Shown: in pieces, positions 3,410 to 58,432 of the stretch
How positions within the stretch are numbered: position 1 is the first letter of the stretch
How the letters are laid out: the number at the start of each line of letters is the position of its first letter
Source: the human T2T-CHM13v2.0 reference genome, Homo sapiens
Length of the DNA stretch: 64,000 nucleotides
Reading direction: 5' to 3' (one strand)
NCBI RefSeq assembly: GCF_009914755.1
Contig: NC_060932.1
The notes under the pieces: model-generated
Databases searched by the model: none
What the model saw: only the letters and a program-made list of their open reading frames with translations
What the model was told of the DNA's origin: nothing
Translations under genes and position numbers: made by a program

Positions 3410-3644
3410 CTTGAAGTACAATCTTGTTGTGTGTTTATTCCAAATGATAGCCTGCCTTCCCCAAGTACAATTGTATCTGGTGACATTCCTGGAACAGTAA
3501 GAAGTTGGTACCATGGACAAACCAGCATGCCGGGAACACTTGTCCTCTGTTTGCCTCAAATAAAGATTATTAGTGCTGGGCACAAGTATATGGAACCTCT
3601 GCAGGAGATTCCATTTGTTATCCCACGACCCATCCTTGAAGAAG
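3410..3644 (+). CDS. VPS13B: VPS13B internal coding exon (235 bp, phase 0 to 1; probably exon 23)
   Basis: Acceptor ttcttttctag|CTT and donor GAAG|gtatat. Translates LEVQSCCVFIPNDSLPSPSTIVSGDIPGTVRSWYHGQTSMPGTLVLCLPQIKIISAGHKYMEPLQEIPFVIPRPILEE, recognised as VPS13B; the frame joins the next exon (G+GT=Gly). Confidence 0.97.
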
Positions 3645-24631: not shown

Positions 24632-25003
<372 letters not shown>

Positions 25004-27714
25004 TAACTGTCTTTAAATAAGTTAAATGCTAACTAGTTTGGAGTAATAAACACTCTCAGCAATTTTGGCCTATTTATGTTTGTAGTACATCTTTCTCTCG
25101 AGTGTTATACTCACAATAGGTGGTAGAATGTTCCTGGTTATACTGGTTCATATTTGAAATACAGACCTGCCTGAGTCATACTGGTTTTTTGAATGTAAGA
25201 GAAAAAACTGGGAGAAGAGGAAGGCATTTTTGTTGTTGTTTCTTTTGACAAACATTCAGTGACTAAGGTAATGAAAACAAAGAAAACTGAGGAAAGTATC
25301 TCCAGTATTGACCAGCATTCTTTCCACATTTGCTAAATAGATATTTGTAAGGTGATTCAAACTGGCCTCAAGTACATACACTTTTTCCTGTAGTGTAGTA
25401 GAGTGTTTTTTGAAAGGAAAAGACTGATTATCTTTCCAGAATATTGATTCCTACCCAAAAAGATTCAGGGTCATAAATTATATTTCTGTGATAAGGATTT
25501 GTATAAATAGTCATTGTTCACTAACCGCAACATTGACAAAAACGTTTTTTATGTCTATATTATTAAAATTATTTTTGTGTCATGTAAACCATAATCTTTT
25601 GATTATAGCATGGTATGATATCAGCAACATGTGATACAATATAAAGAAATCCCCTGTAATTTTCTTTTTAAGTTTCACTCATTTGTAAGTTTAATATGTT
25701 CCTTTGGGGACCTCCTCCCTGCTCCACCCCTTGGCGTTGACACATGTAACGCATAGTCTCACTGGTTGTTCTTTATTTATTCATTTTGTCCCAAAGCTTT
25801 CTGTCATATTCACTTTCTTTCACATTATTTGGTCTGAATTACATCAGTGTTTGGTCATCATTTTCTTGAGAATTGTTTTGTTTGTATTCTTTTCTCTAAT
25901 GATAATATAGAGGGGTAACAAATTCACATACAAAGAGATTCTCAATCTTCCTGCCTTGTTCTTTTTTTCTTATTCTTTAGACATTTTGCTTGAAAATTTT
26001 TTAATTCTGCCGGCAATATTTTCTCTAAAATGAAAGACTTAGATTATAGCATTACAACTTTCCAAGTAAAATAAAAATCTTAATCTTGAAGGTCAGCCCA
26101 GATTGATAGAAAGCTATATGAAGTTCTCAGAATAGTATGTGGTTCTGGCCAGTCATGGATGTCTGAACATATTTTATGGAGTGCCCAGAACATTATTTTG
26201 CCAGTATTATAAGTAGATAAGGTGTTTTCATTCTGGTGTGTGTGTGTGAAAGGAATACTTGTGCAGTTAATGTGTTTTGTGAATTTTTCTCACAGTGGGA
26301 AATTGTGGAATTTTTGTCATTGCATGTTAAAATTTCATCTTCTAGGTATAGTGTGCTTTTTAAAACAATCTGTATGCTAAATAAATGGACATGAAGTGTA
26401 GTACCTTGAAAGGTTTTTTTTTTTTTTTTAGGAGTTAGGGTATGATATGCTCAATTTCAATTTCCTAATCTGATTCCAAAGAAGACGCAGAAATATAACT
26501 GTGATAGTACCAATGTTATTTGGGATTTTTAAAAATTTAACAAATTTTAATCTGGTGCCCTTCCATCCAGCATAACCACCATTTAGCATTTCTTGGATAC
26601 AATAGGATTTGAAAAAATATATATAGCTCACTACCAGCTTTAAAATATATAATCCGAACTCAGTCCAAAATATTTTAAGACAAATTTGGCAGAGCCTTTA
26701 TTTTTTAAATAGCATGGAATTTGATGTAGGTTTTAAAATAATTTTAGAATTAGTTACAGATGATTTAGTTTGTCATTCTTCCTAGGGGGAAAAATATTTT
26801 AAATCTTAAGACAGACAAAGTACCATAGTGCTGACCACATATTATTATGCAGTTATCATTGTTTCCAGTCAAGTTATTGTGAACTATGTTGCTAGGTTTA
26901 TTTTATTATGCAAGTCTCACTTTCAAAGTTTCTAATTTTATAATAATTTTATTAACTATATTTGGTCAAGACATTTTTAATGTTCAAACTTATAAGAATG
27001 TATCTTCTGGTACCTACTGAATATTGAATATATATTTAGACTCCTCTAAAATATTTGTAGTATGATCTACCTAGTAATTCACTTGGTATTTTTTCTTCAG
27101 TGAAAAAACAAGGGAAGACCATGAGTGCAGTGTGATCTCTGATCTCATCTCTGCCTGGGCACATCCATCACCCATAGGGGAAAAAATATATATGAAGGAA
27201 ATATAACTAAGTGTTAATATTATTTATTATTGGGGGTGGCAAAATAGAAGGTAAATTATGAATGGTTTTGATATTTTCTTCTTTATATGTTTCCCAATTT
27301 ATCTGCAGTATGGCATCTATTACCTCTCTAATTAGAAAATAAATGTCCTCAATTTGTTCTAAAATAATTGAATTACTAAAAATGATGTTCATGTTATACT
27401 CTCTGTACTGACAAGCACTAGTAGAATTGTAAAGTCCAAAATACAAATGATATAAAATTGATATCACCATAATAAATGTTTAAAAATATTCTAATACTAA
27501 ATGGACTTTTTAAGAGTTCAAAAATTACTTTTCTATATTTACAAGAAATAAATGGCTTTATCTCAAATGTTTATATTAATAAATTAATTTTACCTGAGAT
27601 AAGTCAGTAAAAGCTCAAAGTATAAAAAGGGAATTTTGCTTTTAATCCTGAAATTTATGAATGCCAATTTTTTATCAAGTGCATTTTATTTAAAAATAAC
27701 TCAAATGTAAGAAT

Positions 27715-27860
27715 AATCTAGGGAACATATCAAAATTCATGCTGGGTCGTACCATCAGAGATTTTGATTAAGAAGGTCTAAAGTCCTAGGAACCTGTGTT
27801 TTAAACCAGCATCCCACATGAATTCTGAGGCAGGTGATCCAACAGACCATATTAGATTGT
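27715..27860. mobile_element. MER5A-like fragment
   Basis: ctaggaacctgtgttttaaaccagcatcccacatgaattctgaggcagg. Confidence 0.55.
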
Positions 27861-27932
27861 TTATTCTTTTCCTGTCTCATTCCATGGCAAGATCTATGGT
27901 CATTTTCAGTACCATAGATAAAATCAGGATTC

Positions 27933-28066
27933 AAGTTGAATCTGTTCCTCTACATTCTATCAGGCAGAGCTGCCATAACAAAGTACCATAAACTGGGTGG
28001 CTTAAAGCAACAGAAACATATTGTCTCAAAGTTCTTGGAGGCTACAGTCCAAAATCAAGGTATCAG
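27933..28066 (-). repeat. Inverted copy of 31035-31168 (MLT1 3' end plus flank)
   Basis: 130/134 identical to the reverse complement; also shown by the shared peptide in ORFs 27936(+) and 31007(-). Confidence 0.95.
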
Positions 28067-28421
28067 ATCACATTTATGTAATGTGATCTGTTTTCTCTGG
28101 CCTCCAGGGTTTGCATACGTCCCCAACAGTTTCACAATACAACCAACTAGGGTAAGGGAAGAAGAAGTTAGAACTTTTATTTTTATTTTTATCCCATATA
28201 TTTAATTTCTGTTAATGTACGGTTTATAGTGTATATAATTACTGACAGAATTTTCAGTAGCATGTAAATTGTTTAGCACCGTGGTCTCAGGAATACTATA
28301 TTCACTTTTTATGATGCAGTATTAGTCATAAATGTTAAATGTTTTACATTTTACTATCAAGTGAAAATTAATTGTCTTTTTGTTTGTGTGCTTCCCTATT
28401 CCCTTTTATCCCCTATATCAG

Positions 28422-28642
28422 GTGATGCTTTTCCTTGGACGATCAGCTTGCATAATTTCAGCATATATACCCTTCTTGGAAAACAAGTGACACTTTGCCT
28501 AGTGGAACCTATGGGTTGCACCTCCACTCTAGCTGTCACGTCTCAAAAACTGCTTGCTACGGGACCTGATACACGACATTCATTTGTTGTCTGTCTCCAT
28601 GTTGACCTAGAGTCACTAGAGATAAAATGCTCTAATCCCCAG
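28422..28642 (+). CDS. VPS13B: VPS13B internal coding exon (221 bp, phase 1 to 0; probably exon 24)
   Basis: Acceptor ccctatatcag|GTGATGCT and donor CCCCAG|gttggt. Encodes (G)DAFPWTISLHNFSIYTLLGKQVTLCLVEPMGCTSTLAVTSQKLLATGPDTRHSFVVCLHVDLESLEIKCSNPQ. Confidence 0.96.
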
Positions 28643-29011
28643 GTTGGTACATTTGATTTATGAAAGGAAATTTAAAGTAATGTGATTTAAAAGCAACTGT
28701 TATCCATTTTGTTGAAGGGTTTCTCTTCTCTTGAGTATCCTAAATTATTTTTAACTTGGCCATCAAGATCAGGGTGGTTAGATTAAGAATTGCTTTGAAG
28801 CTCTCTCAAGTTGTGTAATTTAAACTCTTCTGAAAATGTAGTGGTGGCAGTACAAATGTATCTTTTGGCTGATGGAATGAAATCAGTTGCAGATGTAATG
28901 TTTTTAAACACTGAAGAACTATTTTACTGTCAGACTGGAAGAGTCTGTTGAACTGATCGAGTGTAATTTTCATTCAGATTCTCACTCAGAACTTCTTTGC
29001 TTATCATGCAA

Positions 29012-29297
29012 TTTTTTTATTATTATACTTTAACTTCTAGGATACATGTGCACAACGTGCAGATTTGTCACATATGTATACATGTGCCTTGTTGGCGTGC
29101 TGCACCCGTTAACTCATCATTTACATTAGGTATATCTCCTAATGCTATCCCCCGACCCCCCAGCCCACGACAGGCCTGAGTGTGTGATGTTCCCCACCCT
29201 GTGTCCAAGTGTTCTCATTGTTCAATTCCCACCTGTGAGTGAGAACATGCAGTGTTTGGTTTTCTGTCCTTGCAATAATTTGCTCAGAATGATGGTT
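29012..29297 (-). mobile_element. L1PA 3' end fragment (PA4-PA5-like)
   Basis: tattatactttaacttctaggatacatgtgcacaacgtgcag ... gagtgagaacatgc. Confidence 0.92.
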
Positions 29298-29577
29298 AGT
29301 CTATTTGAGGGTAAATAAACAAGGGTTAAATTGTATGCAACTAATTATTTGTGCAAACCCAGGTGATGTGAATTCATATTAAACTGTAAAATTACAAGAT
29401 ACAGCATGATTGGTCTATGACACCTGAAATCTTTTTCTTTTTAAAAATATTATTTTTAAAAAGAAATATTAAAAAAAATTTAAATATTATTTTTTAAAAA
29501 CATTATTTGTTATATTTGTTATATTAATTGTTATAAGCCAATTTTTAAGAGTACTTTTTTAAGTAGGTTCAAGTTAG

Positions 29578-29737
29578 TTGAGCTTGATGGCACATGCCTA
29601 TAGTCCCAGCTACTCAGGAGGCTGAGGCAGGAGGATCCTTGAGCCCAGAAGTTAGAGGCTGTAGTGTGCTATGATTGCACCCAGGAATAGCCACTGCACT
29701 CCAGCCTGGGCAATAAAGCAAGACTCTTTCTCTTAAA
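29578..29737 (+). mobile_element. FAM (fossil Alu monomer)
   Basis: Monomer retaining the extra 7SL-derived segment gaatagccactgcactccagcctgggc. Confidence 0.75.
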
Positions 29738-29755
29738 ATTTTTTGTTTTGTTTTA

Positions 29756-29909
29756 ATTCACTTTTTATGAAGCAGTATTAATCATAAATGTTAAATGTTT
29801 TACATTTTATTATCACGTGACAATTAACTGTATTTTTGTTTGTGTGCTTCCCTACTCCATTTCCTCCCCTATATCAAGTGATACTTCTCTTTGGACTATC
29901 AGCTTGCAT
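29756..29909 (+). pseudogene. Decayed copy of the acceptor region and first 32 nt of the 221-bp VPS13B exon
   Basis: Ungapped alignment to 28300-28453 with ~16 mismatches in 154 bp. Confidence 0.92.
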
Positions 29910-30162
29910 TCCATATTTTATAGAGCGTCTTTTTTGAAACCATCCTCATCCTTTCTTTTCTTCTTGCCTCCTTCTCCCTACTATATACTATACTGTTTGA
30001 TTTAACTTTTATATTTGAAAAGATTAGACCTAATAATATATTGGTAAGAGTCTTATTATAAAAATGCATTTAATTGGAATTATGACAAGGCAGCTTTATT
30101 AAAAGAACACTGTCATAAAAACTTAAGAACTCATCTTCCACTACAGTAAACATTATTTCATG

Positions 30163-30477
30163 TTTTCTTTCTTTCCTTTTTTTTTTTTTTTTTTGACACA
30201 GGGTCTTACTTGGTCCCCCAGGCTGAAGTGCAGTGGTGCAATCACAGCTCATGCAGCCTCAAACTCCTAGGTTCAAGCAGTCATCCCATTTGAACCTTCT
30301 GAGTAGCTGGGACTATAGACACATGCCACCATGACCAGCTAATTTATTTCATTTTTATTTTTTTGTAGAACAGGGTCTCGCTTTGTTGTCTGGGATGATC
30401 TTGAACTCCTGGCTTCAAGCGATCCTTCTGCTTCAGCCTCTCAAAGTGCCGGGATTACATGGTGTGAGCACCATGCC
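30163..30477 (-). mobile_element. AluJ
   Basis: Poly-T, gtgcagtggtgcaatcacagctc, aactcctggcttcaagcgatcc. Confidence 0.88.
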
Positions 30478-30676
30478 ATAAGGTCATTTATTTTAGAATC
30501 AGTAGTGAATACTTTTGAATGACACTAAATATTTCAGTTTAATGGCTATTTGCCTTTCTATTATACCCATAGTGATATAGAAGAAAATAATTATGAAATG
30601 ACTATCTTCTTTGAGATTACTCTTTGAGTGCTGCTGCTAATGGTTGCTTTAAAGTGTTTTTAAAAGGAAAGGAAAC

Positions 30677-31145
30677 TGTTATGGATTGAATTGTGTCCCC
30701 GCAAAAATATATGTTGAAGTTCTAACCTTGTGTATCTCAGATATAACCTTATTTGGTTATAGGTTTGTAACAGAAGTAAGTTAAAATGAAGTCATTAGGA
30801 TGACCCAATGTGACTGGTATCCTTATAAAATAGAAAAATTTGGACATAGACACATACAAAGGGAAGATGATGTAAAGATACACATGGAGATTGTCATGTG
30901 AACATGGAAGCAAAGATTGAACTAGTGGAGCTGTAAGCCAAGGAGCACCCAAGATGGATAGTTCCCACCAGAAGAAGCTAGGCAGAGAGCCAAGGAAGGA
31001 TTGTACTCAGAATCTCAGAGGTTGCATGGCCCTACTGATACCTTGATTTTGGACTGTAGCCTCCAAGAACTTTGAGACAATATGTTTCTGTTGTTTTAAG
31101 CCACCGAGTTTATGGTACTTTGTTATGGCGGCTCTGCCTGATAGA
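30677..31145 (+). mobile_element. MLT1 (MLT1B/C-like) solo LTR
   Basis: tgttatggattgaattgtgtcccc ... ttttaagccaccgagtttatggtactttgttatggc. Confidence 0.88.
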
Positions 31146-32711
31146 ATGTAGAGGAACAGATTCAGCTTCTTTAGACACTTTATCACAGAAGTTGTTAAAA
31201 AGGAAAACATAAGATATCTCTTAGCATGGCAGTATAAGCTCCCTCAGCCTATCTTTCCTACTGATTATTCCTATATACTCTAGGAAAAATTCAAAAACAA
31301 ACAATTGACTACCCCCACATAAATGCATGTTCTCAACTTGTTTTAAAATAATTGAATTGCAAAATGACTTTAAGGCAGCTTTTAGAAATTTTTATGAGGT
31401 GCAAAGGAAAGCATACTAAATGAAAAGGCAATAAATCTCAATTGAGGAATAAAAAGTATAAAAAGAGTCAAATGGAATTTTAGAACTAAAAAATACAGTA
31501 CCTGAAGGAAGAAAACCATATTATGTGGGCTTAAAGGTAGCTTGGAGATGATAGAAGAAAGAGTTACTAAACTTGAACATAGATCAGTAGAAATTACTGA
31601 ATTTGAAAAAGAAAGGAAAAAAGTTTTTTTAAAAAGTGAACAGAGCTTCAATGATTGTAGAATAGAAAAGTCGAATATTGTGTACTACTTGGAGTTTCAG
31701 AAGGAGAGGATAAAAGGATTGGGATAGAAAAAAAAAAAAAGAGGAAATAACTACAGAAAACTTTGCAAATTTGGGGAAAGAGATAGTCTTTACGCATCCA
31801 AGAAGTTCACCTAATCCCAAACAGGATAAACCCAAAGTAACAAACATTTGGACACATTGTGATTAAAATATTGAAAACGAAAAATAAATTTTTTAAAATT
31901 TTGACAATTTTGACAGCAGATATAGGAAAAGACACATTCCATATAAGCAAATAATGATTTGAATTAGAGTAGATTTCTCATTAGAAACCACAGGAGACAG
32001 AAGACATTGGAACAATATTTTGGAAGTGCTAACATAAAAGAACTGTTAACCTAGTGAAGATACCCCACAGAAATGAAAGAGAAATAAACCCATTTTTAGA
32101 TGAAGAAAAGCTAAGAAAGTTTGTCACCAGCTGCTCTATTCTACAAGAAATGCTAAAGGAAATTCTGCAGGATGAAGGAAAATGATACTGGATGAAAAAT
32201 TAGATCTTTAGGAATGAAGGAAAACCAACAGAAGGGATAAATGGCTGGGTAAATATATTTTTTAAAAAACTACTTAAAAATATGTGTGACTCTTGAAATC
32301 AAAAAGCATAACATTGTCTGCTGGTTTTTTCAGTGTATGTAGATGTAGCATACAAGACAACTATAGCATTAAGGCTAGTGGAAGATGGAGTAAAAGAATC
32401 TATGGTTGCCAAGTTTCTACATATCATATGAAGTGGTACAATATAAACTCTTAAGTAGACCGAAAGTTTTGGTGCATATGTTTTACTCTCTTAGGACAAC
32501 TAATAAGAAAATGCAAAAATACAAAAGGATAAAGCCAAAAAGTCAATAGAGAAATTAAAATTAAATACTAAAAAATATTCAAAGAAGCCAAAAGAAGATG
32601 GGAAAAAGTAACAAAGGAACAAAAAATGGAGGGTAAAACAGTACAAAAAATAAAATGCTGGAGCTAAGCCAGCTATATTAATAATTACATGAAATATTTA
32701 TGGTCTCAATT

Positions 32712-32885
32712 AGGAATCTGCAAACTAATGCCCATAGGCCAAATTTGCCCACACTCCTTTTTTACATATTGTCTATGGTTTCTGCCATGCTACACCTGCA
32801 GAATTGAATAACGGAACAGTATGGCCCACAAAGCCTAGAGTATTTACTCTCTGGCCCTTCACAGAGAAAGTTCACAAATTATTGG
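32712..32885. mobile_element. MER58-like DNA transposon relic nested in L1M
   Basis: tggcccacaaagcctagagtatttactctctggcccttcacaga. Confidence 0.65.
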
Positions 32886-35192
32886 TGAAACACTCCAAGT
32901 AAAAGGCAAAGATCTACAGTGGGAAGTAAAGCAAGATGCTACCGTATAATACCTAAGATTGTATTTTACTTAAATATAAAGAAACGTTATAAATAGATGC
33001 ATAGTAAAAGATACACCATACAAACAGTCAGCATAAAAAGGCTGGACTTACTTATTTTAATCTTAGATAGAACAAATAAAAAGTGTGTTACCATAGATAG
33101 AGTGACATGAAACAAAAATTAACAGAATTAAGGGAAAAAGATAGAGAATTCTAGAATCGTAGTAGGAAATTTTTATAACACCTCTTTCAGCAATGGATAA
33201 AACAACTGGATTAAAAATAAATAATTGAAGATATAGAAGATATGAAAATACTATGCACTCACCTTGATCTAATTGGCATTTATAGAACAGTATATCCAAC
33301 AACCGTAGAATGTGCTTTTTTACAGATATACATGGTCTCATTTTTAAGAGGATCAAAAATCACATGAAAGTATTATTTGACCACAGTCAAATTAGAAATT
33401 AATAATAATAAAATAGCTAGAAAAACTTTAAATATGTGGACATTAAACAACATGCTTCTAAATAATTTATGGAACAAAGACATAATTATTTGGGAAATTA
33501 GAAAATATTGAATGACACTAAAAAAAAAACTGGATAAGCTAAGGCAATGTTTAGAGGGAAATATAACTTTAAAGACATATTAGAAAGGAAGAAAGATCTT
33601 AAATCAGCCATTTAAGGTTCAATTTTAGAAAGCTAAGAAAAGAACAAGAGAAACCCAAAGTAAGTAAAAAGAAGAAGATAATAAAGATATGAGCAGAGAT
33701 GAATGGAACAGTTAACAAAAAAGTGAGCAAGAGATAGAAAATTAATAAACTGATTCTTTTAAAAGATCAACAAAATTGACAGTTCCTTAGCTAGACTGAA
33801 ATAATAGAGAGGGAGAAAAAAATGCAAACTACTAATATCATGAATAAAGGGGAGCTGATAACATTAAAAGCATAATAAGAAAATAATGAACAACTTTATG
33901 CCAACAAATGCAACAACTTAGATGAAATGGAAATTTTCATTGGAAAAGAATTCCATCAAAGTTGACACAAGAAGAAAAGAGCAAAACCAAATAGCTCTAT
34001 ATCTTTTAAGAAAATTGAATGTGATGTCAAAAACTTTCCCATGGAGAAAACTTCCAATCTAGATGGATGAATTCTATCAAATATTCTGGAAAAAATAACA
34101 TAAATTTTTCACAAATGTTTTCCCAGAAATGAAGCCTGAAGCATCCCTGCCCAACTGGTTTTATGAAGCTAGCATAACTCTAATAACAAAACTTCAAAAA
34201 GACTTTACAAAAGAAGGAAACTAGGTATTAATATCCCTCATGAAAATGATATATAAGTTCTTAACCAAATGTTAACAAATCAAAGATAACAATATCTAAA
34301 AGGCATAATATATATATTATACGTAATGGCCAACTAGGAATTATCTTAAAAATGCAAGTTTGGTTTAACATTCAAAAATCATTCAATATAATTTACCATA
34401 ATAACAAAACAAAGGAGAAAAATCATATGATCATCTCAATAAATTCAAGTGAGACATTTGACAGAATTCAACATGCATTCATGATGAAAAGTCTCAGCAA
34501 ATTACAAGTAGGAGGTAACATTCTCAAACTGATAGAGATCATATAAGGGAAAACAATGGTAAATATCATACGTAATGGTAAAATATTGAATTGTTTCCCA
34601 CTAAGATCAGGAAAAAGTCCAGGATTTCTGCTTTCAATTCTATTCTGTATCATACTAGAGTTCCTAACCATTACAATAAACCAAGAAGAATTAATAAAAG
34701 ATATAAAGATAAGAAATGAAGAAGTAAAACTGTTTGCATGTAACATATTTTATAGAAAACCCCAAAGGAGTCTAATAAACTATTACTAAAACTAACAAAA
34801 CTCACCAAGCTTTTATGAGACAAAGTTAATGTATTAAAACCATTTGTATTTTTATGTACTAGCAGCAAACAACCGGAAAATGGAATGAAATCAACTTCAC
34901 TCTTTACTAACATCCAAGAAACATAAATGAATAAATCTAACAAAAGATATCTAAGACCTCTATCCTGAAAACCATAAAGCGTTGCTGAGAAAACTTAACA
35001 CCTGAAAGAAGTAAAGAGATATATCTCCTCATAGTTTGGAAGACTCAAATTGTTGATGGCTTATTGATCTTGATATTGGGCGTAATCAAGTTTAAAAAAA
35101 TACTTTTTGAATGACACATTGAGATAGCAGAAAGCCCGACATTTGGAGAAGGTGTTTACAAGACATTCTTCAAACAATGGACTGTTATCCAA

Positions 35193-42603: not shown

Positions 42604-42807
42604 GTCCAGCTCTTCTATGAACTAACTGATATCATGAATAAGGTCTGGAACAAGATTCAGAAGAGAGGCAATCTCAACCTATCTCCAACCTCTCCAGAGA
42701 CCATGGCAGGGCCTGTTCCTACTTCTCCAGTTAGAAGCAGTATAGGCACAGCTCCTCCAGATACCAGCACATGCAGCCCATCTGCTGACATTGGGACTAC
42801 TACTGAG
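42604..42807 (+). CDS. VPS13B: VPS13B internal coding exon (204 bp, symmetric phase 0; probably exon 25)
   Basis: Long polypyrimidine tract ending ctctcag|GTCCAG; donor ACTGAG|gtaagt. Encodes VQLFYELTDIMNKVWNKIQKRGNLNLSPTSPETMAGPVPTSPVRSSIGTAPPDTSTCSPSADIGTTTE. Confidence 0.97.
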
Positions 42808-58054: not shown

Positions 58055-58432
58055 AATATTTATTTACAAATAATTTATTTGTAATATATATAAATATATA
58101 TATTTATGTAATATAAAAATATATTTATATATTTAATATATAAATATATATATTTATGTAATATAAAAATATATTTATATATTTAATATATAAATACATG
58201 TATTTATATATTTAATATATATAAATACATGTATTTATATATACATATATGTATGTATTTATGTATCATATATGTATATATTTATATATACATAAAAATG
58301 CATATATACATAAAATAATATGTATATATTTATATACACATAAAATACATATATACATAAAATAATATGTATATATTTTATATTTAAATATAAAAATATA
58401 TTTATGTAATATAAAAAATTATTACAAATATT
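58055..58432. repeat. AT-rich (TA)n-derived low-complexity tract with internal tandem duplications
   Basis: Almost purely A/T; a ~50-bp unit occurs twice at ~58085-58184. Confidence 0.9.

What the first reader, a model, noticed from the sequence alone, without database searches (positions are those of the whole stretch)
27933..31168. 134-bp near-perfect inverted repeat looping out a VPS13B exon
Seen: 27933-28066 is the reverse complement of 31035-31168 with only 4 differences. In the + strand pre-mRNA three are G-U wobbles (27936:31165, 27971:31130, 28007:31094) and one is G-G. The copy includes flank beyond the MLT1 end, so it is a duplication rather than a second LTR insertion, and 97% identity is far higher than expected between independent MLT1 copies. 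The arms enclose the frame-shifting 221-bp exon, with the 5' arm 355 nt before its acceptor. Inference: a ~3-kb stem-loop that could promote back-splicing (221-nt circRNA), exon skipping with NMD, ADAR editing or a micro-inversion. The wobble bias rests on only three sites and may be chance.
Basis: partly seen in the sequence, partly recalled or inferred. Interest (0 to 1): 0.72.

Follow-up and report, generated by a model that had tools for sequence, protein, structure and literature searches.

The report
Small inverted duplication flanking VPS13B exon
A 134-base piece of an old retroelement and its flank was copied backwards into the intron just upstream of a VPS13B exon; the two copies can pair into a strong RNA stem around that exon, but no effect on the gene's products was found.

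Summary
Bases 27933-28066 are the reverse complement of 31035-31168, matching at 130 of 134 positions with no gaps.

It is a locus-specific inverted duplication, not a second LTR insertion. In the whole assembly only these two copies share the first ~25-40 bases. The 38 other scored copies reach 83-92% identity and start at arm position 26-41. The right arm runs on into a complete old LTR, so the left arm is the derived copy. It lies beside an 11-bp-stem palindrome and is bracketed by a 5-nt direct repeat, which suggests a microhomology-mediated templated insertion.

In the pre-mRNA the arms form the closest and most perfect pairing across the exon (-248 kcal/mol; kept in the 3.3-kb MFE).

One of these lists 14 VPS13B circRNAs; 5 contain this exon and 3 use one of its splice sites. 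Exon skipping, ADAR editing and inversion could not be tested.

Verdict: a real, probably neutral rearrangement scar, and an ordinary member of a known class (intronic reverse-complementary pairs). Interest is low to moderate.

The parts
27933..28066 (+). Left arm: the derived, inverted copy. About 25-40 nt of unique flank followed by roughly the first 95-110 nt of an LTR. It stops abruptly at 28066.
   Evidence: 130/134 match to the right arm; the 38 other genomic copies match only from arm position 26-41 onward; the sequence on both sides of the arm is unique in the genome.
31035..31168 (-). Right arm: the source copy, continuous with the LTR body on the - strand.
   Evidence: the sequence runs on into the LTR body; 30670-31034 (-) matches 39 other dispersed copies at 69-76% identity.
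30672..31143 (-). Old solitary LTR; the ends are approximate. I call it MLT1/MaLR-type from recall only, because no repeat library was available.
   Evidence: family similarity begins at arm position 26-41, which is window 31143-31128; matches end at query 325-365, mostly 355-363, which is window ~30680-30672.
28422..28642 (+). The 221-nt coding exon of VPS13B enclosed by the arms (hg19 chr8:100479642-100479862).
   Evidence: Hub annotation; one open frame of 73 codons; the hg19 mapping follows from spliced-length arithmetic (221+204=425; 128+235+221=584; 128+235+221+204=788).
28064..28090 (.). Perfect palindrome with an 11-bp stem and 5-nt loop, overlapping the last 3 nt of the left arm.
   Evidence: 16 perfect hairpins with stem >=11 in the 64-kb window; 10 of them lie in a TA-rich tract at 58.2 kb and only 6 elsewhere.
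27928..27942 (.). Perfect palindrome (7-bp stem, 1-nt centre) across the other junction of the left arm. It includes the mismatch position 27936.
27923..27927 (+). 5-nt direct repeat ATCAG, repeated at 28062-28066. Together the two copies bracket a 139-nt insertion unit, 27928-28066.
   Evidence: Read. Removing 27928-28066 leaves the 11-bp-stem palindrome intact, because the flank supplies the same CAG.
28300..28453 (+). Source of a second small local duplication: the last 122 nt of the intron plus the first 32 nt of the exon.
   Evidence: only two copies in the genome.
29756..29909 (+). Direct copy of 28300-28453, inside the loop. 90% identical (16/154 differences), with the acceptor AG changed to AA at 29876-29877.
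29571..29738 (+). Alu-like right-monomer fragment. It pairs (71%) with the inverted Alu at 30189-30345, inside the same downstream intron.
   Evidence: sub-threshold SRP and Alu-derived miRNA matches only.
30180..30477 (-). Alu element in the downstream intron, between the exon and the right arm.

Best explanation
This is a local inverted duplication. About 134 bp, made of the 5' end of an old solitary LTR plus ~25-40 bp of its flank, was copied from ~3 kb downstream. It was inserted in reverse orientation 355 nt upstream of a VPS13B exon.

The most likely mechanism is a microhomology-mediated template switch or templated break repair at the foot of a small palindrome that was already there. 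Divergence of 3% puts the event roughly 7-30 My ago, using mutation rates I recall rather than measured.

In the pre-mRNA the two arms are predicted to form a 134-bp, almost perfect duplex that loops out the exon and 2.7 kb of intron. This duplex is probably an ADAR substrate. At most it causes low-level back-splicing or skipping. The element most likely has no selected function.

Shown: the repeat itself, its restriction to two copies, which arm is source and which is copy, the predicted duplex, and the absence of the single-exon circle from two catalogues. Inferred: the mechanism of origin, the age, editing, and neutrality.
For: - The repeat and its mismatches.
- Only two genomic copies carry arm positions 1-25. 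The 38 other scored hits start at position 26-41 with 83-92% identity (40 scored of 2197 first-look candidates).
- The right arm is continuous with an LTR body that has 39 other copies at 69-76%. The left arm is flanked by genome-unique sequence. So the left arm is the copy.
- Junction features: an 11-bp-stem palindrome at 28064-28090 and a 7-bp one at 27928-27942; such hairpins are rare in the window. A 5-nt ATCAG direct repeat brackets 27928-28066 (read).
- Three differences were polarised with 8 other copies. Two changes fall on the right arm and one on the left, as expected for drift after duplication.
- A second small local duplication in the same 3 kb (28300-28453 to 29756-29909, 90%, two copies genome-wide) is significantly more diverged (Fisher p = 0.018). 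This suggests the region has collected templated copies repeatedly.
- RNA level: cofold -248.4 kcal/mol against -22.6 and -29.2 for the arms alone; 130 of 134 pairs kept in the MFE of 27900-31200. Of 20 inverted matches between the two flanking introns, this is the nearest to the splice sites by far (356 and 2393 nt). The two higher-scoring Alu pairs lie >=16.7 kb upstream.
- No single-exon circle in Zheng 2016 (0 of 14 VPS13B circRNAs) or in the held Maass 2017 tables.
- Liang and Wilusz 2014 (PMC4201285; abstract and section 12 read) report that ZKSCAN1 exons of 400 nt or less circularised poorly or not at all. This fits a 221-nt exon not circularising on its own.
Against: - Neutrality is assumed, not shown. 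No RNA-seq, editing, PARIS or population data could be consulted.
- The catalogues are shallow for VPS13B (2-17 reads per circle), and small circles are under-sampled, so a rare 221-nt circle is not excluded.
- Three of the 14 catalogued VPS13B circles do use this exon's acceptor or donor for back-splicing. The neighbourhood is therefore back-splice competent, and the arms could influence those events.
- The template-switch model rests on post-hoc reading of two junctions, with no outgroup to show the empty site. Other parses of the junctions are possible.
- Gene conversion between the arms could make the duplication older than 3% divergence suggests.
Confidence: 0.72

Rival explanations
1. 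The arms are a working cis-element for back-splicing. They bring the exon's donor and acceptor together and produce a 221-nt single-exon circRNA.
For: 134 nt of near-perfect complementarity in the two flanking introns, with no competing partner for either arm in the window. Inverted repeats of 30-40 nt are sufficient in minigenes (PMC4201285 abstract). This exon's acceptor and donor are used for back-splicing in 3 of 14 catalogued VPS13B circles.
Against: The 221-nt circle is absent from Zheng 2016 and from the held Maass 2017 tables. It is also not among the VPS13B circles in the ADAR-regulated lists of PMC8938519. Guo 2014 supplements hold no VPS13B entry. Short exons circularise poorly (PMC4201285 section 12). 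The right arm is 2.4 kb from the donor.
Confidence: 0.1
2. The stem loops out the exon and promotes its skipping (3644>42604). This shifts the frame and gives NMD, so the insertion tunes VPS13B dosage in a lineage-specific way.
For: The stem is predicted to dominate the local fold. The exon is 221 nt, so skipping it shifts the frame. Opposite-orientation intronic Alus flanking an exon have been linked to alternative splicing (Lev-Maor 2008, PMC2533698; only the search listing was seen, and the content is recalled).
Against: No data on skipping could be consulted. The exon is present in the selected RefSeq transcript. The upstream intron can be spliced before the right arm, 3.1 kb downstream, is even transcribed. 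Loss of VPS13B function is pathogenic, so a strong skipping effect would be selected against.
Confidence: 0.08
3. The arms are a substrate for, or a relic of, inversion of the 3-kb segment. This would be either homologous recombination between the arms or a staggered-break inversion that duplicated its breakpoints.
For: Inverted, 97% identical arms 3 kb apart. VPS13B is known for intragenic rearrangements (recalled).
Against: The enclosed exon is in the correct orientation and is used, so the segment is not inverted in this assembly. The longest uninterrupted identity between the arms is 59 bp (from the mismatch positions), which is short for homologous recombination (threshold recalled). My search of VPS13B inversion literature found nothing at this locus.
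Confidence: 0.03
4. The arms are two independent insertions of the same LTR family in opposite orientation, or an assembly artefact.
For: Part of each arm belongs to a dispersed repeat family.
Against: The arms share ~25-40 nt that no other scored copy matches. They are 97% identical, against 83-92% for the best other copies. The left copy is only ~100 nt of an LTR of ~470 nt. The four substitutions, polarised to both arms, are not what a collapsed or mis-joined assembly would give.
Confidence: 0.01

Closest known systems
Reverse-complementary matches (RCMs), usually inverted Alu pairs, in introns flanking circularised exons
   Same: Complementary sequences lie in the two introns flanking an exon. 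They are longer than the 30-40 nt that suffices in minigenes (PMC4201285). There is no competing within-intron partner.
   Different: The pair is not Alu-derived. It comes from a one-off local duplication, so it is far more perfect (97%) than typical Alu pairs (70-85% in this window). The expected product, a circle of the enclosed exon, was not found in the catalogues I could check.
Long, nearly perfect inverted duplicated sequences in pre-mRNAs (Barak et al. 2020, PMC7006430; passages read)
   Same: An intronic, near-perfect inverted duplicate that would fold into dsRNA. That paper reports such structures are tolerated in pre-mRNA, and that some of the few expressed ones are heavily edited.
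   Different: That study's 'long' class is >300 bp at >96% identity (197 in human RefSeq transcripts). This one is 134 bp, and VPS13B is not in the supplement as held.
Templated insertions and microhomology-mediated template switching (FoSTeS/MMBIR, polymerase-theta-type repair); recalled, not read here
   Same: A short copy of nearby sequence is inserted in inverted orientation. There is a 5-nt direct repeat at the borders and short palindromes at both junctions. A second ~150-bp local copy lies in the same 3 kb.
   Different: The mechanism is inferred from one assembly only. No empty site or outgroup was available, and the insert is longer than typical end-joining filler.
hsa_circ_0005984 and the other catalogued VPS13B circRNAs
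   Same: They contain this exon (5 of 14 in Zheng 2016) or use its splice sites in the back-splice (3 of 14).
   Different: They are multi-exon circles. Their back-splice partners lie outside the loop, so the 134-nt pair is not positioned to drive them.

Membership tests
circRNA-driving intronic reverse-complementary pair | Complementary sequences located in the two introns that flank the circularised exon(s) | tested here: met
   Left arm in the upstream intron, right arm in the downstream intron.
circRNA-driving intronic reverse-complementary pair | Pairing across the exon is not out-competed by partners within the same intron | tested here: met
   Neither arm has any other match in the 64-kb window. 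130 of 134 pairs are kept in the 3.3-kb MFE.
circRNA-driving intronic reverse-complementary pair | An observed back-splice junction joining the donor and acceptor of the enclosed exon | tested here: not met
   chr8:100479641-100479862 is absent from Zheng 2016 files 2 and 3 and from the held Maass 2017 tables. The catalogues are shallow and file 2 was cut when stored, so a rare circle is not excluded.
Independent solitary LTR insertion | An element with its own ends and its own flanks, diverged from other copies as the family is | tested here: not met
   The left copy is ~100 nt of a ~470-nt LTR and carries the flank of the right copy. Identity is 97%, against 83-92% for the best other copies.
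Local small-scale inverted duplication / templated insertion | The copy includes non-repeat flank of the source and exists only at these two places in the genome | tested here: met
   only self and the right arm cover positions 1-134. All 38 other scored hits begin at position 26-41.
Local small-scale inverted duplication / templated insertion | An empty orthologous site in an outgroup that shows the pre-insertion sequence | not testable with these tools
   No primate or other eukaryote genomes are held. The genome search states that the assembly has no relatives here.
ADAR-edited intronic dsRNA | An intramolecular duplex of about 100 bp or more in a transcribed region | tested here: met
   133 predicted pairs, -248.4 kcal/mol, on the sense strand of the VPS13B pre-mRNA. 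This is a prediction only.
ADAR-edited intronic dsRNA | Clustered A-to-G mismatches in RNA reads over the arms | not testable with these tools
   No RNA-seq or editing database is available. VPS13B is not in the held supplement of PMC7006430.
Inversion substrate for homologous recombination | Inverted arms with long uninterrupted identity, and an observed inverted allele | tested here: inconclusive
   The arms are inverted and 97% identical, but the longest perfect tract is 59 bp. No second assembly or population data is available, and no report turned up in the literature search.

The most novel reading that the evidence does not exclude
The 139-bp insertion is a primate-lineage cis-element with a real effect on VPS13B. 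Either it loops out a frame-shifting exon, lowering dosage through skipping plus NMD and biasing which multi-exon circles form. Or it mediates rare 3-kb inversions or deletions that produce Cohen-syndrome alleles invisible to exome sequencing. Separately, the two junction palindromes, the 5-nt border repeat and a second ~150-bp local copy would mark this intron as a recurrent site of palindrome-triggered template switching.
Probability: 0.1. Interest if true: 0.6.

Novelty: new member of a known kind. Interest (0 to 1): 0.27.

Why it matters
If the stem had an effect, it would be a clean, non-Alu natural test of how a near-perfect long-range duplex around a short, frame-shifting exon steers splicing in a disease gene (Cohen syndrome). 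It would also be a candidate site for cryptic structural alleles. As it stands, it is a well-delimited example of a small inverted templated duplication with readable junctions. That is useful for studying template-switch mutagenesis, but it is not surprising to a specialist. The prediction that made it interesting, a 221-nt circRNA, has no support in the catalogues I could reach.

Tried and rejected
- **Other copies in the window:** a sensitive blastn of the LTR region against the window found only the left arm.
- **Larger hidden duplication:** a sensitive self-comparison of 25000-34000 found only the three local pairs and one Alu pair. The different offsets (1456 and 3984 nt) and orientations argue against one tandem event.
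- **Mutually exclusive exon pair (exon 28/28b idea):** rejected. The downstream copy holds only 32 nt of exon and has AA in place of the acceptor AG. PMC9188546 only names exon 28b.
- **Known RNA families:** Rfam at E<=1 over 27000-32000 gave 4 sub-threshold, Alu-derived matches and none on the arms.
- **Literature:**
  - VPS13B + circRNA: 22 papers held the terms; I opened three, and none concerns this exon alone.
  - VPS13B + exon 28b.
  - VPS13B + exon skipping / deep intronic.
  - hg19/hg38 coordinate prefixes. One of the two hits, the only one opened, was an unrelated chr7 gene.
  - VPS13B + inversion / breakpoint: nothing at this locus.
- **Supplements:** Guo 2014 has no VPS13B entry. 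Salzman 2013 gives gene-level counts only. PMC8938519 lists two VPS13B circles elsewhere in the gene. Jeck 2013 is not held.
- **Whole-gene background survey:** only the first 200 kb could be fetched.
- **Wobble bias as a sign of selection:** rejected (p = 0.125). Two of the three polarised changes are coding-strand A>G, a class recalled to be in excess in transcribed DNA.
Full report
**The observation**

Arms 27933-28066 and 31035-31168 are 134 nt long, with 4 mismatches, no gaps and 2968 nt between them (blastn E = 1.3e-59). In the + strand RNA the four non-Watson-Crick positions are:
- U:G at 27936:31165
- U:G at 27971:31130
- G:G at 27995:31106
- G:U at 28007:31094

The left arm ends 355 nt before the acceptor of the 221-nt exon (28422-28642). 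The right arm starts 2392 nt after its donor. The exon has a single open frame, and its length is not a multiple of three.

As a background, I surveyed 264 kb of VPS13B: this window plus the first 200 kb of the gene. Only 3 inverted pairs have at least 80 nt, at least 90% identity and a spacer of at most 10 kb. This is the only one at 95% or more.

**What it is**

The window's own assembly could be searched. With the left arm as query, 40 of 2197 first-look candidates were scored:
- the arm itself;
- the right arm, at 97% over positions 1-134;
- 38 other copies at 83-92% identity, every one of which begins at arm position 26-41.

So the last ~95-110 nt of the arm belong to a dispersed repeat. 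The first ~25-40 nt are sequence that only these two places share.

The - strand continuation of the right arm (30670-31034) matches 39 other copies at 69-76%. Those matches end at query position 325-365, mostly around 355-363. The right arm is therefore the 5' end of a complete old LTR of roughly 470 nt. I call it MLT1/MaLR-type from recall only, because no repeat library was available.

The left arm stops abruptly inside the LTR. It is flanked on both sides by sequence that is unique in the genome. The right arm is therefore the source and the left arm is a derived, inverted partial copy.

**Junctions and likely origin**

Three short perfect palindromes lie within 251 nt around the left arm, and none around the right arm. 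One has an 11-bp stem (28064-28090) and overlaps the last three bases of the arm. One has a 7-bp stem (27928-27942) and spans the other junction, including the mismatch at 27936.

Perfect hairpins with stems of 11 or more are rare here. There are 16 in 64 kb, and 10 of them sit in a TA-rich tract near 58.2 kb.

Reading, a 5-nt direct repeat (ATCAG) lies at 27923-27927 and 28062-28066. It brackets a 139-nt unit. Removing 27928-28066 leaves the 11-bp-stem palindrome intact.

My inference is that a palindrome already present stalled replication or broke. The nascent strand then switched by 5-nt microhomology to the LTR 3 kb away, copied ~134 nt of the opposite strand, and returned. This reading is post hoc and comes from one assembly. 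An outgroup empty site would decide it.

**Age and drift**

Four differences in 134 nt give a Jukes-Cantor distance of 0.030; the 95% range from the count is 0.008-0.081. With recalled rates of 0.5-2.2e-9 per site per year, this is roughly 7-30 My.

Using 8 other family copies, three differences could be polarised:
- 27971 and 27995 keep the ancestral base in the left arm, so the right arm changed.
- 28007 changed in the left arm.

Changes on both arms are what drift after duplication predicts. Two of the three are coding-strand A-to-G. All three transitions give G:U rather than A:C in the sense RNA, but p = 0.125, so there is no evidence of selection for pairing.

**Other local copies**

The loop contains a second small duplication. 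The segment 28300-28453 (intron end plus the first 32 nt of the exon) recurs in direct orientation at 29756-29909. It is 90% identical and there are only two copies in the genome. In the copy the acceptor AG has become AA. It is significantly more diverged than the inverted pair (Fisher p = 0.018), so it is probably older.

A 49-nt direct pair at 84% identity (27337-27385 and 31321-31367) lies outside the arms. The genome search of its left copy returned only itself. I found no larger hidden duplication.

**RNA consequences (predicted)**

The two arms cofold at -248.4 kcal/mol on the sense strand, against -22.6 and -29.2 kcal/mol for each arm alone. The minimum-free-energy fold of 27900-31200 keeps 130 of the 134 arm pairs.

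There are 20 inverted matches between the upstream intron and the downstream intron. This one is third by score. The two above it are Alu pairs whose upstream arm lies at least 16.7 kb from the acceptor. This pair is 356 and 2393 nt from the splice sites.

Two Alu-type elements inside the downstream intron pair with each other. Rfam finds nothing on the arms.

A duplex of this length and quality in a transcribed intron is the kind of structure reported to be tolerated in pre-mRNA, and some of the expressed ones are heavily edited (PMC7006430, passages read). It is below that study's 300-bp class, and VPS13B is not in its held supplement.

**Test of the main functional prediction**

Spliced-length arithmetic fixes the exon at hg19 chr8:100479642-100479862:
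- 221+204 = 425
- 128+235+221 = 584
- 128+235+221+204 = 788

The 128-nt upstream exon was verified in the assembly.

Zheng 2016 (PMC4823868, supplementary files searched) lists 14 VPS13B circRNAs, with 2-17 reads in total each. Five contain this exon, and three use its acceptor or donor in the back-splice:
- 100479641-100494030 (6 reads)
- 100479641-100533238 (2 reads)
- 100443764-100479862 (4 reads)

None is the single-exon circle. File 2 was cut when stored, but file 3 ('All circRNAs', not flagged as cut) also lacks it.

Other sources:
- Maass 2017 (PMC5660143, held tables) lists hsa_circ_0005984, the 788-nt four-exon circle. It has no junction at this exon.
- PMC8938519 lists VPS13B circles elsewhere in the gene.
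- Guo 2014 has no VPS13B entry.
- Salzman 2013 gives gene-level counts only.

Liang and Wilusz 2014 (PMC4201285, abstract and section 12) show that 30-40-nt repeats can suffice. They also show that ZKSCAN1 exons of 400 nt or less circularised poorly or not at all. This offers a reason why a 221-nt exon would not circularise alone.

The catalogues are shallow for this gene and small circles are under-sampled. This counts as evidence against a strong effect, not proof of absence.

**What could not be tested**

Exon skipping with NMD, ADAR editing, duplex-capture reads, inversion alleles and primate dating all need data that are not held here. My searches for any printed description of this repeat or of events at this locus found nothing (follow-ups 9-11, 19, 35, 57, 58). 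Supplements I could not open, and database-only resources (circAtlas, circBase, REDIportal), may hold relevant entries.

**Verdict**

This is a real, non-random, two-copy inverted duplication with readable junctions. It forms the dominant predicted long-range duplex around a frame-shifting VPS13B exon. It resembles a circRNA-promoting intronic pair, but it fails the one membership test that could be run, namely an observed back-splice of the enclosed exon. I therefore file it as a local inverted duplication, probably neutral and probably edited. It is a new member of a known kind, of low to moderate interest.

Noticed in passing
window 29756-29909 (source 28300-28453): A direct 154-nt copy of the exon's acceptor region: polypyrimidine tract plus the first 32 nt of the exon. 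It lies 1456 nt downstream, is 90% identical, and there are only two copies in the genome. The acceptor AG is AA at 29876-29877, so a single A>G change there would recreate the acceptor dinucleotide deep in the intron.
   Followed up: partly
window 27337-27385 and 31321-31367: A 49-nt direct pair at 84% identity (1 gap), lying outside both arms of the inverted repeat. The genome search of the left copy returned only itself. Origin unexplained.
   Followed up: partly
L029:2291-3045 (G000:C8:100270291-100271045, a VPS13B intron ~294 kb upstream of the window): A ~755-bp near-palindrome. Two inverted copies of the same sequence, ~350 nt each, are about 93% identical with a spacer of ~60 nt. The sequence looks like an L1 3' end by eye, from recall and untested. 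It would form a longer hairpin than the one studied here.
   Followed up: partly
window 29571-29738 and 30189-30345: An inverted Alu-type pair (71% over ~169 nt), wholly inside the downstream intron and between the exon and the right arm. If it pairs, it would shorten the effective loop of the 134-nt stem.
   Followed up: no
window 58185-58376: A TA-rich tract full of perfect palindromes (stems of 11-26 nt). It accounts for 10 of the 16 perfect hairpins with stem >=11 in the window.
   Followed up: no
window -7456..-7329, 3410-3644, 28422-28642, 42604-42807: The catalogued circRNA hsa_circ_0005984 (hg19 chr8:100443764-100494030, 788 nt spliced) is made of these four exons. The acceptor of the 128-nt upstream exon is the back-splice acceptor in 5 of the 14 VPS13B circles in Zheng 2016.
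   Followed up: partly
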